Part shown: piece after piece, positions 52,701 to 54,958 of the stretch
Layout: every line of letters begins with the position of its first letter
Position numbering within the stretch: position 1 is the stretch's first letter
Assembly: GCF_016903815.1 (NCBI RefSeq)
Contig: NZ_CP069973.1
Reading direction: 5' to 3' (one strand)
Length of the DNA: 64,000 nucleotides
Origin: Escherichia coli
Lineage (GTDB): Bacteria; Pseudomonadota; Gammaproteobacteria; Enterobacterales; Enterobacteriaceae
Position numbers: made by a program

Positions 52701-54958
52701 TGACGTTATAAAGACCTGACTGATAAACAGTGGCATCTTTATTGTCTTCATCAATTGCACATAATGAATCATTGAGATAAGCAAAGTTCTTACTGCTCAT
52801 TCTAAAGGTCATGCCAAATCCTTTATAAATAGATTTTTTAGCGGCCTGGGCATGTTGTGCGGCTTCTGCATTTTTAAATGCCTGCGCCTCGGATGCACTT
52901 AAAATAGCCGTCTGACGCTGTTGTTCTGCGAGATAACAGGTGTCATGGCTGACGCCCTGCGCCTGGCAATCTGCGATGCGGGAAGTGGGTGAACTACAGC
53001 CAGCCAGTAATATAACCGCCAGCAGGGAAAACGATTTAATGGAACTATTCATCATTGTTAACCTTAAATAATGTACGGAAAATTGCGAATAAGAAATTGC
53101 TGTTAAAATTAGAACGAATATCCCACGCCGACACCCGCACCGAAATCAGATTGTGTATCCGCAGAAATACCTGCTTTAAGTACCGTATGCGTTCCGGCAT
53201 TAAAAGATGTTCCTACAGACACCGCAGATTCACCGTTGAAGGTTCCCGCTCCCGCTGACACCATCATCAAGTCACCGGTTTTCACCTGTGGTTGTGAGGC
53301 GATAGCGATGGCTGATGCAGTTCCCGCATTGGCTTCTTTACGATTGTCCTCAACTTCGTTTTTCAGAGAATCGAAATGGTTATTGAGCGTGTTAATTTGT
53401 TGGCTGTTATCTGCGACCCGTTTTTGCGTGTTGGTTAACTGTTGCTGCGTTTGTGCGGAATCTTGTCTCAGACTTTCAATTTGCTCATGTGCCTGGACAG
53501 ACTTCTGCGCCAGACTTTGCATTTGTTTATCGTATTGAGCCCTTTCTTTTTGCTGTTGTGCTGCCACATCGGTTGTCAGTGCATTCATTTTCTGCCCTTG
53601 TTCCGTGGTAGTGCGCTGATTAGCCTCATTTTGAGCCGCCAGCCTGGCATTAATCATCTCCTGATAATGCGCGGTATTTTGCGTATCTCCAGTCGCGGCG
53701 AGCGTTTTTTGTGTGGCTACGATCTGCGCCTGTTGCTCTGTAATTTGCGTTTGCTGGGCATCAGTTACCGCAGACTGTCGGGCGTTGATCATGCTCTGAT
53801 AACGGGCGGTTGTCTGTACATCACCTGTAGCGGCAACGGTTTTTTGTCCTGCGTCAGGATCTGTCTGGACAGGGGGAGTCTGAGTGGTATCAGGTGTTTC
53901 AGAAGGGATGTAGTGATGTTCAGTCAAATAGGTATACGCAGCGGGGCTGTTGTCTGTGCGTTCTAAAAAGCGGGTAATCTTCTGCTCAATCTCCGATTGC
54001 GACATGCCAGAGTTAATGGCTGAAAGCTCTGTTGCCGCCGCTTCAATGGTATCACCAGCTAAAACAACAGGGCTGGATGTTGCTGAAATTATGAGTGCCA
54101 GTAAAGCTACGTTTACAGTTTTCATTCATTTTCTCTTGTTCAAAATAAGTCGCATTAATGTTTCTATAAGAAACAAATAATATTGTTTTAAGAAATAAAC
54201 TGCGTTGCAATTTAATCGAAATCTACGCCGCCATTTGTGTGATGTAAAGCGCATTTTTGTCTGGTGTAAGCGTAAACACCACCAATAAGAAACAAAAAAT
54301 GTTTCTTATATAAATAAAATCGAAAATCATTTTGTGCTCTTTCAATGTAAAAAAGAGTAAAGACTTGTTTTGATAAGCGAAATAAATTCTGTTTCTGGAC
54401 TAAACGTGAAGCGGTTCCTGATGTGTGCTAAAATGCGTTTCTTTGATAAATCTCAATTTTTAAGAGGTTTACGCCAGGCAGGAAAATTTAAATGAATGAA
54501 TTTGAGAAGATTTTTAATGAAATGAATCTGGACCGGGCATTGCTACCGATCCTTTTTCGTTCGAACCGGTCAACAGTGTGGAAATATTTAAGTGGCGATA
54601 GTACGGCTCCTGCCTCAGCTATGTCACTGATTATGCTGTTGCAGTTAATCCAGAAACGAAACCCCGATCTGTTAGCCGAATGGTTAACGCTTTCTGATTT
54701 CACCATTCCGCCAGAAGTTTACCTGGACCAGCCTGATTACTGGAAAGGGTGGGTGTATACGCAACACAAGGTCAATAAAAACGTCCTGGAATATCTAAAA
54801 AAACATTATCCGGATGAAGACCAAAAAAACATGAATAAAGGTAGTGACGAGTAATTTGCCAATGCCAGTTAATATAGCGGAGGCGGCCTACGATTCGGGC
54901 GCAGACTTCCAGGCATGATAAGACGCGCCCGCGCCGCATCAGGCATCAGCGCATAACC

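What the first reader, a model, noticed from the sequence alone, without database searches (positions are those of the whole stretch)
54126..54854. AT-rich divergent control region with repeated TAAGAAACA palindromes next to an HTH-like gene
The ~365 bp between the YadA-anchor gene (minus) and the 120 aa ORF (plus) is very AT-rich and carries repeated copies of ataagaaacaaa, including a dyad aagaaaca-aaaa-tgtttctt near 54285-54310. The 120 aa protein has an N-terminal XRE/Cro-like HTH. This arrangement suggests a local regulator and operator sites controlling the divergent operon.
Basis: inference. Interest (0 to 1): 0.5.

Follow-up and report, generated by a model that had tools for sequence, protein, structure and literature searches.

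The report
Local regulator and operators for an adhesin operon
An uncharacterised 120-residue E. coli protein has a phage-repressor-type DNA-binding fold, and it sits back to back with a surface-adhesin operon across a 366-bp control region full of conserved GTTTC/GAAAC repeats; it is most likely the adhesin's own on/off regulator, which is a classical arrangement but an undescribed protein family.

Summary
The window is E. coli chromosome. A 4-gene island lies between cueR and ybbJ: a 67-aa protein, a 140-aa lipoprotein and a 338-aa YadA-anchor adhesin on the minus strand, then a 366-bp spacer at 31% GC, then a 120-aa ORF on the plus strand.

- **Motif:** TAAGAAACA occurs three times in the spacer (0 of 2000 shuffles match this). 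A perfect dyad ATAAGAAACA-N5-TGTTTCTTAT lies at 54285-54309.
- **Linkage:** relatives down to 32% identity sit divergently from trimeric-autotransporter genes in several Enterobacterales, in different genomic contexts.
- **Operator pattern:** across 11 orthologous spacers the half-site GTTTC is enriched 5-8 fold. It occurs at fixed spacings (GTTTC-N5-GAAAC, GAAAC-N7-GTTTC), giving a 22-bp period.
- **Position:** the sites bracket a conserved adhesin promoter and overlap the regulator's own conserved extended -10 and predicted start.
- **Covariation:** one distant relative with a changed recognition helix carries a changed repeat (AAGAACA).

Best reading: a dedicated, autoregulated XRE-type regulator, probably a repressor, of the adhesin operon. 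DNA binding and the sign of regulation are inferred. This is a new member of a known kind, of moderate interest.

The parts
54492..54854 (+). 120-aa ORF. Residues ~1-65 form an XRE/Cro-type helix-turn-helix; residues ~66-115 form a family-specific helical C-terminal domain. Proposed local regulator.
54126..54491 (.). 366-bp AT-rich divergent control region.
   Evidence: GC 0.31. Spacer length of 356-379 bp is kept in orthologous loci. Alignment A3 shows conserved blocks.
54160..54174 (.). O1: perfect palindrome GTTTC-TATAA-GAAAC, at about +40 to +54 of the predicted adhesin transcript.
   Evidence: GTTTC-N5-GAAAC gives 14 hits in 11 spacers against 0.33 expected.
54166..54199 (+). Repeat module I (ATAAGAAACAAATAATATTGTTTTAAGAAATAAA). 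It is a direct repeat of module II, 119 bp away.
   Evidence: the repeat finder family D2, 79% identity.
54285..54318 (+). Repeat module II.
   Evidence: Half-sites are invariant and the spacer sequence varies among E. coli strains. GAAAC-N7-GTTTC gives 15 hits against 0.27 expected.
54220..54248 (-). Predicted sigma-70 promoter of the adhesin operon: -35 TTTACA (54248..54243), 17-bp spacer, -10 TAGATT (54225..54220). Predicted start is near 54213.
   Evidence: Promoter scan. It is the most conserved block of the spacer; TTTACA and the T1, A2 and T6 of the -10 are kept across genera. The start site is inferred.
54379..54405 (.). Three-half-site array GAAAT-N7-GTTTC-N5-TAAAC, at about -62 to -36 of the regulator promoter.
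   Evidence: The GTTTC at 54391-54395 is conserved in 8 of 10 orthologous spacers at about -100 from the ATG.
54426..54434 (+). Predicted extended -10 promoter (TGcTAAAAT) of the 120-aa gene. Predicted start is near 54441.
   Evidence: TGnTAnnnT is found 45-69 bp upstream of the ATG in all 13 spacers examined, including relatives at 32-48% identity. The start site is inferred.
54437..54451 (.). O6: GTTTC-TTTGA-TAAAT, a degenerate palindrome overlapping the predicted start of the regulator gene. Proposed autoregulation site.
   Evidence: GTTTC at -53 to -60 from the ATG in 9 of 10 orthologous spacers. Conserved block in A3.
54347..54361 (+). GTAAA-AAAGA-GTAAA: exact match to the CpxR-box consensus, about -94 to -80 from the regulator start.
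   Evidence: At the same aligned position with 0-1 mismatch in 8 of 13 spacers. The consensus GTAAA(N)4-8GTAAA is quoted in PMC9603713. Binding was not tested.
54443..54456 (.). TTGAT-AAAT-CTCAA: a 9-of-10 match to the FNR/CRP-family box TTGAT-N4-ATCAA, in the conserved regulator leader.
   Evidence: Read from alignment A7; it is perfect in L007 (TTGAT-ACAC-ATCAA). The consensus is from my own knowledge. Not tested.
53109..54125 (-). 338-aa trimeric autotransporter adhesin: signal peptide, coiled-coil stalk and YadA anchor.
   Evidence: Pfam YadA_anchor E 1.6e-11. PDB AtaA/Hia anchors E 5e-7 to 4e-5. RefSeq names it 'YadA family autotransporter adhesin'.
52633..53055 (-). 140-aa lipoprotein (lipobox LLAGC), co-operonic with the adhesin.
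   Evidence: ORF. 46% identical to the gene in the same position in the distant locus L018. Present in most orthologous loci.
52433..52636 (-). 67-aa hydrophobic protein. Its start overlaps the lipoprotein stop by 4 bp. Last gene of the operon.
   Evidence: ORF coordinates. A 64-69-aa gene occupies this position in L002, L003, L004, L009 and L013.

Best explanation
The 120-aa protein is a dedicated XRE/Cro-type transcription factor of a small mobile adhesin module. The module is regulator <-> trimeric autotransporter adhesin, lipoprotein and 67-aa protein.

**Proposed mechanism**
- The protein binds GTTTC/GAAAC half-sites, probably as a dimer or higher oligomer held together by its C-terminal helical domain.
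- The half-sites are laid out with alternating centre-to-centre distances of 10 and 12 bp, giving a 22-bp period that puts them on one face of the DNA.
- Two repeat modules, 54160-54199 and 54279-54318, bracket the adhesin promoter at about +15 to +54 and -66 to -105.
- A further array (54379-54405) and a site over the start (54437-54451) bracket the regulator's own extended -10 promoter.

**Most parsimonious logic**
- Negative autoregulation of the regulator gene.
- Repression of the adhesin operon, by roadblock and/or looping between modules 119 bp apart, relieved by an unknown cue.
- Possible global inputs through a conserved CpxR-like box and an FNR-like box.

**Shown**
- The HTH fold.
- Motif enrichment, fixed spacing and conservation.
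- Conserved promoter elements.
- Conserved linkage of the regulator gene to an adhesin gene.

**Inferred**
- That this protein binds these sites.
- The transcription start sites.
- The oligomeric state.
- The sign of regulation (repression is favoured only slightly over activation or anti-silencing).
For: **Fold**
- AF2 model at pLDDT 90.8.
- The Foldseek PDB top 50 are all HTH.
- One or two divergent family members reach Pfam MqsA, Xre-like-HTH, HTH_3 or HTH_26 at E 3e-5 to 4.5e-4.

**Linkage**
- Relatives at 61-83% identity lie divergently from YadA-anchor genes in five different chromosomal contexts. The exception is the Symbiopectobacterium locus L005, where the neighbour was not checked.
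- Relatives at 48%, 44% and 32% identity lie divergently from YadA-anchor genes too.
- The lipoprotein is conserved in the 32%-identity locus.

**Motif**
- GTTTC occurs 5-8 times per spacer against about 1 expected, in all 10 orthologous spacers.
- It is the top 6-mer and 7-mer in an unbiased count.
- There are sharp spacing peaks at N5, N7 and a 22-bp direct period.
- Half-sites are invariant while the spacer varies among E. coli strains.
- All exact copies in the 64-kb window lie in this spacer.

**Position**
- The sites flank the conserved TTTACA-17-TAnnnT promoter and overlap the start downstream of the conserved TGnTAnnnT.

**Covariation**
- In locus L018 the recognition helix is PRNTIFNYL instead of NRSTVWKYL, and the repeat is AAGAACAT-TTA-ATGTTCTT instead of AGAAACA.

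**Alternatives excluded**
- No conserved RNA structure or Rfam family lies in the spacer.
Against: - No experiment links the protein to the DNA.
- The protein itself fails every sequence-profile threshold.
- The first AF2 run, on a shallow alignment, was poor at pLDDT 54, so the fold rests on one deeper-alignment model.
- Two dyad geometries coexist (N5 tail-to-tail and N7 head-to-head). This is unusual for a simple dimer operator and leaves the true unit undefined.
- The orthologous spacers are homologous, so motif conservation is not fully independent evidence.
- The covariation rests on essentially one divergent clade.
- The transcription start sites are predictions.
- AT-rich islands of this kind are usually also bound by H-NS and by global regulators.
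Confidence: 0.65

Rival explanations
1. The GTTTC arrays are operators for a different, trans-encoded regulator, either a global factor or one encoded elsewhere. The 120-aa HTH protein would then act on other targets or act only as a co-factor or anti-silencer.
For: - The spacer also carries conserved matches to CpxR and FNR-type boxes, so other factors probably bind here.
- The AT-rich composition is typical of H-NS targets.
- Nothing experimentally ties the protein to the motif.
Against: - The motif travels with the regulator gene into unrelated chromosomal contexts and genera.
- The motif changes where the recognition helix changes.
- From memory, no well-known enterobacterial regulator consensus fits the N5/N7 geometry (OmpR, PhoP, RcsAB, Cra and KdgR were checked).
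- The motif does not recur in intergenic DNA elsewhere in the window.
Confidence: 0.15
2. The 120-aa protein is an activator or H-NS anti-silencer rather than a repressor. It would bind the upstream arrays (about -84 for the adhesin promoter, about -43 to -54 for its own promoter, which lacks a -35) to switch the island on.
For: - The regulator promoter has an extended -10 but a poor -35 (GTGAAG, read).
- An array is centred at about -43 to -54, a typical activator position.
- Horizontally acquired AT-rich adhesin loci are commonly silenced and need a dedicated counter-silencer (established knowledge).
Against: - The best-conserved perfect palindrome, O1, lies downstream of the predicted adhesin start.
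- Another site lies over the regulator's own start.
- These are positions typical of repression, and most small XRE proteins are repressors.
Confidence: 0.3
3. The ORF is an orphan antitoxin or Aca-like remnant of a mobile element, and its position next to the adhesin is incidental.
For: - The closest structures are antitoxins (HigA2, MqsA) and anti-CRISPR-associated repressors.
- The weakest family members (P0039) lie in a different, mobile-looking context without an adhesin.
Against: - No toxin or acr partner is present. The downstream neighbour differs in every context (ybbJ, fetA, cnoX, Fer2, an Xre/RES pair 340 bp away in L011), while the divergent adhesin gene is constant.
- There are no PADLOC hits and no significant PHROG hits.
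- The protein has no MqsA zinc-ribbon domain.
Confidence: 0.03
4. The repeats act at the RNA level, as a leader structure, thermometer or small RNA, rather than as protein-binding DNA.
For: - O1 lies within the predicted 88-nt adhesin leader.
- O6 lies in the regulator leader, and both are palindromic.
Against: - RNAalifold predicts no conserved pairs in either leader across 9 orthologues.
- Rfam finds nothing in the spacer.
- Module II and the 54379-54405 array lie upstream of both predicted starts.
- The 22-bp periodicity is a property of the DNA helix.
Confidence: 0.03

Closest known systems
XRE/Cro/cI-family small repressors with tandem palindromic operators (Aca1/Aca2, restriction-modification C-proteins such as C.Esp1396I, phage P2 C, lambda cI/Cro)
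   Same: - The protein is small.
- Operator palindromes come in adjacent pairs about two helical turns apart.
- Sites overlap the regulator's own promoter, which implies autoregulation.
   Different: - Sequence similarity is not significant.
- The C-terminal helical domain is found only in this Enterobacterales family.
- The cargo is an adhesin operon, not R-M, acr or lysogeny genes.
- Two dyad geometries (N5 and N7) coexist.
Type II antitoxins MqsA and HigA2 (HTH domain)
   Same: - These give the best sequence-level hints: Pfam MqsA_antitoxin at E 0.12, and 3e-5 for one family member.
- HigA2 is the top Foldseek hit, with TM 0.68 on the target and rmsd 2.4 Å.
- They bind palindromes in their own promoters.
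   Different: - No toxin gene is present.
- There is no zinc-ribbon (MqsA) or toxin-binding N-terminal segment (HigA2).
- The conserved partner is a divergent adhesin operon.
Dedicated local regulators of enterobacterial adhesin operons, such as PapB/PapI for P pili or VirF for Yersinia YadA (from my own knowledge)
   Same: A regulator is encoded with, or acts specifically on, an adhesin locus. Control is through an AT-rich upstream region that also integrates global regulators (Cpx, H-NS, Lrp, CRP).
   Different: - The protein folds differ: PapB, and AraC-type VirF.
- No GATC/Dam phase-variation sites are seen here.
- I found no report of an XRE-type regulator dedicated to a trimeric autotransporter.
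SadA-SadB (Salmonella/E. coli trimeric autotransporter plus helper lipoprotein; from my own knowledge)
   Same: The adhesin gene is followed by a co-transcribed lipoprotein gene.
   Different: - The 140-aa lipoprotein shows no sequence similarity to any PDB chain.
- SadA-SadB is not known to carry a divergent HTH gene.
- The relationship was not tested structurally.

Membership tests
XRE/Cro/cI-type (lambda-repressor-like) HTH DNA-binding domain | Compact five-helix bundle with helix 2, a turn and recognition helix 3. | tested here: met
   [not shown]
XRE/Cro/cI-type (lambda-repressor-like) HTH DNA-binding domain | Significant match to a sequence profile of the family (Pfam HTH_3, HTH_31, HTH_26, MqsA_antitoxin). 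| tested here: not met
   This protein gives only MqsA_antitoxin at E 0.12. There is no NCBIfam hit, and the PDB profile search gives E >= 0.46. Only 1-2 of 24 family members reach E 3e-5 to 4.5e-4.
XRE/Cro/cI-type (lambda-repressor-like) HTH DNA-binding domain | Sequence-specific binding to (pseudo)palindromic operators. | not testable with these tools
   Candidate operators were identified. Binding needs EMSA or footprinting.
Type II toxin-antitoxin antitoxin (MqsA/HigA type) | Adjacent co-transcribed toxin gene. | tested here: not met
   The downstream DNA is REP repeats followed by convergent ybbJ. Downstream neighbours differ in every orthologous locus.
Type II toxin-antitoxin antitoxin (MqsA/HigA type) | MqsA N-terminal zinc-ribbon domain. 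| tested here: not met
   The Pfam alignment covers only model positions 76-129 of 131. The 120-aa sequence contains no cysteine.
Anti-CRISPR-associated (Aca) repressor | Encoded directly downstream of acr genes in a mobile element. | tested here: not met
   The context is chromosomal, with an adhesin operon as the only conserved neighbour. There are no significant PHROG or PADLOC hits.
Trimeric autotransporter adhesin (neighbouring gene 53109-54125) | C-terminal YadA-like membrane anchor. | tested here: met
   Pfam PF03895 E 1.6e-11 at residues 279-338. AtaA and Hia anchors in the PDB match at E 5e-7 to 4e-5.
CpxR regulon promoter (candidate input) | GTAAA-N(4-8)-GTAAA tandem repeat upstream of the promoter. 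| tested here: met
   Exact match at 54347-54361, conserved in position in 8 of 13 spacers. Consensus as quoted in PMC9603713. CpxR binding itself was not tested.

The most novel reading that the evidence does not exclude
The 120-aa protein founds an undescribed, Enterobacterales-restricted family of XRE-fold regulators dedicated to trimeric-autotransporter adhesin modules. In this reading the protein oligomerises through a unique C-terminal domain along 22-bp-periodic half-site arrays. It loops or coats the DNA around the adhesin promoter and so acts as the switch that couples envelope or oxygen signals (Cpx, FNR) to adhesin display. About a quarter of complete E. coli genomes carry the module, including STEC and ExPEC strains.
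Probability: 0.3. Interest if true: 0.5.

Novelty: new member of a known kind. Interest (0 to 1): 0.4.

Why it matters
- The island is present in about 26% of complete E. coli genomes (1413 of 5426), including clinical, STEC and CSF isolates. Both the adhesin and its putative regulator are annotated only generically or as hypothetical.
- A defined regulator, operator motif and promoter pair give a direct experimental handle. They allow expression of a normally silent trimeric autotransporter to be switched on, so that its role in colonisation or as a vaccine antigen can be studied.
- The family also adds a clean example of an XRE-fold protein that escapes every sequence profile and is recognisable only by structure prediction plus genomic context.
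- Conceptually it is a classical divergent regulator/operator arrangement, so the advance is incremental.

Tried and rejected
- **Sequence profiles for the 120-aa protein.** Pfam, NCBIfam, PDB phmmer/hmmsearch, PHROGs and PADLOC gave nothing significant.
- **First AF2 run.** With 10 close homologues it gave pLDDT 54 and was unusable. It was rescued by adding distant homologues from the exhaustive search.
- **RNA explanations.** Rfam finds no family in the spacer. RNAalifold predicts no conserved pairs in either leader.
- **Toxin-antitoxin, Aca or phage readings.** Rejected on gene context.
- **Known regulator consensus sequences, recalled from memory.** RcsAB box (TAAGAAT-ATTCCTA spacing), OmpR, PhoP (TGTTTA-N5 direct repeat), Cra (GAAAC|GTTTC with N0), KdgR (about N3) and TyrR do not fit the N5/N7 geometry. 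A CRP-like TGTGA-N6-GCGCA at 54238-54253 is centred on the -35 hexamer and is more simply read as promoter conservation.
- **Perfect GTTTCTGGCAGAAAC at 2340-2354.** It lies inside a 125-aa membrane-protein ORF and is taken as chance.
- **Locus searches.** The search for related loci with the wide alignment failed for lack of a conserved stretch. With the close alignment it found only 4 species-representative genomes.
- **Literature searches.** Searches for the locus, or for an XRE regulator of a trimeric autotransporter, found nothing relevant.
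Full report
**Where the window comes from.** The region is 100% identical to many E. coli chromosomes, for example strain 7/2. RefSeq annotation of that strain gives this gene order:
- siiEA, a 6925-aa giant adhesin, followed by a type I secretion ATPase and adaptor;
- cueR;
- a four-gene insertion;
- ybbJ-qmcA.

The insertion consists of:
- a 67-aa protein (52433-52636, -);
- a 140-aa lipoprotein (52633-53055, -);
- a 338-aa 'YadA family autotransporter adhesin' (53109-54125, -);
- a 120-aa 'hypothetical protein' (54492-54854, +).

The spacer itself is found in 1413 of 5426 complete E. coli genomes, always once and always chromosomal, at 85-100% identity.

**Checking the observation.** The spacer 54126-54491 is 366 bp at 31% GC, against 45-58% in the flanking genes.
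- ATAAGAAACAAA occurs at 54166 and 54285.
- TAAGAAACA occurs three times, at 54167 (+), 54286 (+) and 54300 (-). These are the only exact copies in the 64 kb.
- The dyad is ATAAGAAACA-AAAAA-TGTTTCTTAT at 54285-54309, with 10-nt arms and a 5-nt spacer.
- A second perfect palindrome, GTTTC-TATAA-GAAAC, lies at 54160-54174.

I tested these against dinucleotide shuffles of the spacer alone:
- The 10-nt inverted repeat is reached in 36 of 2000 shuffles.
- A 12-nt repeated word is reached in 120 of 2000 shuffles.
- Three copies of TAAGAAACA are never reached (0 of 2000).
- Six GTTTC/GAAAC pentamers stand against 1.08 expected (0 of 1000 shuffles).

The single features are therefore only modestly unusual. 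The recurrence of the motif is not.

**Is the 120-aa protein an HTH protein?** Sequence profiles do not say so.
- Pfam gives only MqsA_antitoxin at E 0.12, covering the HTH part of that model.
- NCBIfam, PHROGs and PADLOC give nothing significant.
- PDB sequence searches are above E 0.3.

The family is tiny. There are 21 clusters in the 5.8-billion-protein index. An exhaustive profile search of 1.84 billion representatives gives 24 hits at E <= 1e-3. Every source calls the protein 'hypothetical' or 'uncharacterized'.

An AlphaFold2 run on 10 close homologues was poor, at pLDDT 54. Adding the distant homologues (alignment A4, 24 sequences) gave pLDDT 90.8 and pTM 0.78.
- The top 50 Foldseek PDB hits are the same class.
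- In AFDB50, only family members match over the full length. They are uncharacterised proteins of E. coli, Cronobacter, Hafnia, Pectobacterium and Ewingella. Everything else matches only the N-terminal ~65 residues.
- One or two divergent family members do reach Pfam MqsA, Xre-like-HTH, HTH_3 or HTH_26 at E 3e-5 to 4.5e-4.

The protein is thus an XRE-fold HTH (helix 2 at 15-22, recognition helix at 26-34, NRSTVWKYL) fused to a family-specific helical C-terminal domain.

**Gene linkage.** I fetched the genomic contexts of ten family members.
- Relatives at 61-83% identity come from Pseudocitrobacter, Ca. Symbiopectobacterium and several metagenome contigs.
- In each, a gene lies divergently across a spacer of 356-379 bp. 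It is a trimeric autotransporter in all of them except the Symbiopectobacterium locus L005.
- In L005 the divergent gene is a 174-aa ORF with no Pfam hit, which I did not check.
- Most neighbours have a YadA_anchor Pfam hit. The two without a precomputed hit are homologous to the E. coli adhesin anchor at E 2e-16 and 5e-26.
- A lipoprotein gene usually follows the adhesin, and a 64-69-aa gene often follows that.
- The module sits in at least five different chromosomal contexts: cueR|ybbJ in E. coli, qmcA|fetA, qmcA|cnoX, next to nrdAB, and next to an MCP gene.
- Relatives at 48%, 44% and 32% identity (P0022, P0024, P0027) are also divergent from YadA-anchor genes.
- The lipoprotein of the 32% locus is 46% identical to the E. 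coli one.
- Only the weakest hit examined (P0039, E 2e-5) lies in an unrelated, mobile-looking context.
- The downstream neighbour of the regulator gene is different every time, so there is no conserved toxin or other partner.

**Footprinting the spacer.** An alignment of nine orthologous spacers (A3) shows mean column identity of 62%, with sharply conserved blocks.

*Adhesin promoter.* On the minus strand there is a sigma-70 promoter, TTTACA-17 bp-TAGATT (54248..54220, also found by the scan). The -35 hexamer and positions T1, A2 and T6 of the -10 are kept while the other positions drift (TAGATT, TAAATT, TATGTT, TATTTT). That is the signature of a real -10. The predicted start is near 54213, giving an 88-nt leader.

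*Regulator promoter.* On the plus strand there is an extended -10, TGnTAnnnT (TGCTAAAAT at 54426-54434). It is present 45-69 bp upstream of the ATG in all 13 spacers examined, including the distant ones. The predicted start is near 54441.

*GTTTC/GAAAC half-sites.*
- They occur 5-8 times per spacer against about 1 expected, in all ten orthologous spacers.
- AGAAAC/GTTTCT and AGAAACA/TGTTTCT are the commonest 6-mer and 7-mer overall, ahead of all A/T-only words.
- Several copies sit at fixed distances from the ATG, at about -55, -101 and -185 to -217, with a looser cluster at -283 to -344.

*Spacing.* A scan of all spacings from 0 to 18 for all orientations in 11 spacers gives isolated peaks:
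- GTTTC-N5-GAAAC: 14 hits against 0.33 expected.
- GAAAC-N7-GTTTC: 15 hits against 0.27 expected.
- Direct GTTTC-N17/18-GTTTC: 18 and 12 hits.

This describes an array of alternating half-sites with a 22-bp period, about two helical turns. Both dyad types occur in isolation in some species, so which one is the unit bound by a dimer is not decided. In most species the position of the E. coli 'perfect dyad' is occupied by two adjacent N5 palindromes. The E. coli dyad corresponds to their inner halves.

*Within E. coli.* Across five variants down to 85% identity, the half-sites of both perfect dyads are invariant. The spacer of the 54289-54305 dyad changes (AAAAAAT, AAAAATG, TTAATCC) with its length kept at 7.

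**Layout in E. coli.**
- Module I (54160-54199) lies at about +15 to +54 of the predicted adhesin transcript.
- Module II (54279-54318) lies at about -66 to -105. It is a 79%-identical direct repeat of module I, 119 bp away.
- Modules I and II therefore bracket the adhesin promoter.
- A three-half-site array (54379-54405) lies at -62 to -36 of the regulator promoter.
- A degenerate palindrome, GTTTC-TTTGA-TAAAT (54437-54451), covers the regulator's predicted start.

Sites downstream of one start and on top of the other are positions typical of repression. I therefore favour negative autoregulation plus repression of the adhesin operon, possibly by looping between the phased modules. The sign of regulation is an inference. 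The activator or anti-silencer alternative is not excluded, because the regulator promoter has a poor -35 and an array at about -43 to -54.

**Covariation.** In the locus of P0027 (32% identity) the recognition helix is PRNTIFNYL. The spacer there contains no GTTTC array. It carries AAGAACAT-TTA-ATGTTCTT plus further TGTTC(T/C) copies. In the P0022 locus (helix NRSTLIKWI) the repeat is TGGTTTCTAGTGG, three times. In the P0024 locus it is GCAGAAA, three times. The repeat thus changes with the protein while the extended -10 stays. This is what is expected if the local protein reads the repeat. It rests on few clades and is suggestive only.

**Other inputs seen.**
- An exact CpxR-type box, GTAAA-N5-GTAAA, lies at 54347-54361, about -87 from the regulator start. 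It is kept at the same aligned position with 0-1 mismatch in 8 of 13 spacers. The consensus GTAAA(N)4-8GTAAA is quoted in PMC9603713.
- The conserved regulator leader contains TTGAT-AAAT-CTCAA (54443-54456). This matches 9 of 10 positions of the FNR-type TTGAT-N4-ATCAA box (consensus from my own knowledge) and is perfect in one orthologue.
- Both are untested hints.

**Rivals.**
- *RNA-level function.* RNAalifold finds no conserved pairs in either leader, and Rfam finds nothing in the spacer.
- *Toxin-antitoxin or Aca identity.* There is no partner gene, no zinc ribbon (the protein has no cysteine) and no defence or phage family hits.
- *A different trans-acting regulator reading the repeats.* This cannot be excluded without experiments. 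It fits poorly with the motif travelling and changing together with the gene.
- *Known consensus sequences.* RcsAB, OmpR, PhoP, Cra and KdgR, recalled from memory, do not fit the geometry.

**Comparison with known systems.** Functionally this looks like the small XRE-family autoregulators with paired palindromic operators: Aca proteins, R-M controller proteins, phage repressors and antitoxins. It shares their fold but not significant sequence similarity. It has its own C-terminal domain and a different cargo. I found no paper describing it, the 338-aa adhesin's regulation, or any XRE-type regulator dedicated to a trimeric autotransporter. The searchable library is incomplete, so absence there is not proof.

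**Verdict.** It is a new, uncharacterised member of a very familiar kind of system, a divergent local HTH regulator with operators. Confidence in the mechanism is 0.65 and interest is 0.4.

Noticed in passing
window 54860-55082: Downstream of the 120-aa gene lie tandem REP/BIME-type palindromic repeats. One unit (54912-54989) matches Rfam naRNA4 (RF02564) above the gathering score, at 71.9 bits against 59.5 on the minus strand. A weaker copy lies at 55012-55078. They fill the gap to convergent ybbJ and probably mark the island boundary or act as a terminator.
   Followed up: partly
L022 2425-3026, L023 2661-3026, L024 2292-3026 (E. coli strains 23S01245-7, KE41, MS20675): In several E. coli strains the annotated adhesin CDS starts 370-735 bp short of the conserved spacer. 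In other genera the adhesin ranges from 346 to 627 aa. The passenger domain is therefore highly variable, and the gene may be 5'-disrupted or mis-annotated in some lineages.
   Followed up: no
window 52433-53055 (-): The adhesin is followed by a 140-aa lipoprotein (lipobox LLAGC) and a 67-aa hydrophobic protein. The 67-aa start overlaps the lipoprotein stop by 4 bp. The lipoprotein is conserved (46% identity) even in the most distant module examined. This recalls the SadA-SadB adhesin and helper-lipoprotein pairing, but there is no sequence match to any PDB chain.
   Followed up: partly
window 54347-54361 and 54443-54456: There are conserved matches to a CpxR box (GTAAA-N5-GTAAA) and an FNR-type box (TTGAT-N4-CTCAA) near the regulator promoter. 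They suggest envelope-stress and oxygen inputs.
   Followed up: partly
window 27910-52429: A 6925-aa SiiEA/BapA-like giant adhesin gene is followed by type I secretion ATPase and adaptor genes. The adaptor's stop overlaps the cueR start by 4 bp (52022-52025), so the copper regulator cueR looks translationally coupled to the secretion operon in this strain. The EAEC 042 genome paper notes the same locus with a 'CueR-like regulator' (PMC2808357).
   Followed up: no
window 2340-2354: A perfect GTTTCTGGCAGAAAC palindrome, of the same N5 type as the operators, lies inside a 125-aa inner-membrane-protein ORF (2159-2536). I judged it a chance match.
   Followed up: partly
L015 220-3641: One relative of the regulator (48% identity) faces two tandem YadA-anchor genes (533 and 584 aa) instead of one. 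This is reminiscent of paired adhesin genes such as Yersinia yadBC.
   Followed up: no
L011 5675-6585: In one metagenomic locus the regulator gene is followed, about 340 bp downstream, by an Xre-like antitoxin and RES-toxin pair. This pairing is not conserved in the other contexts.
   Followed up: no
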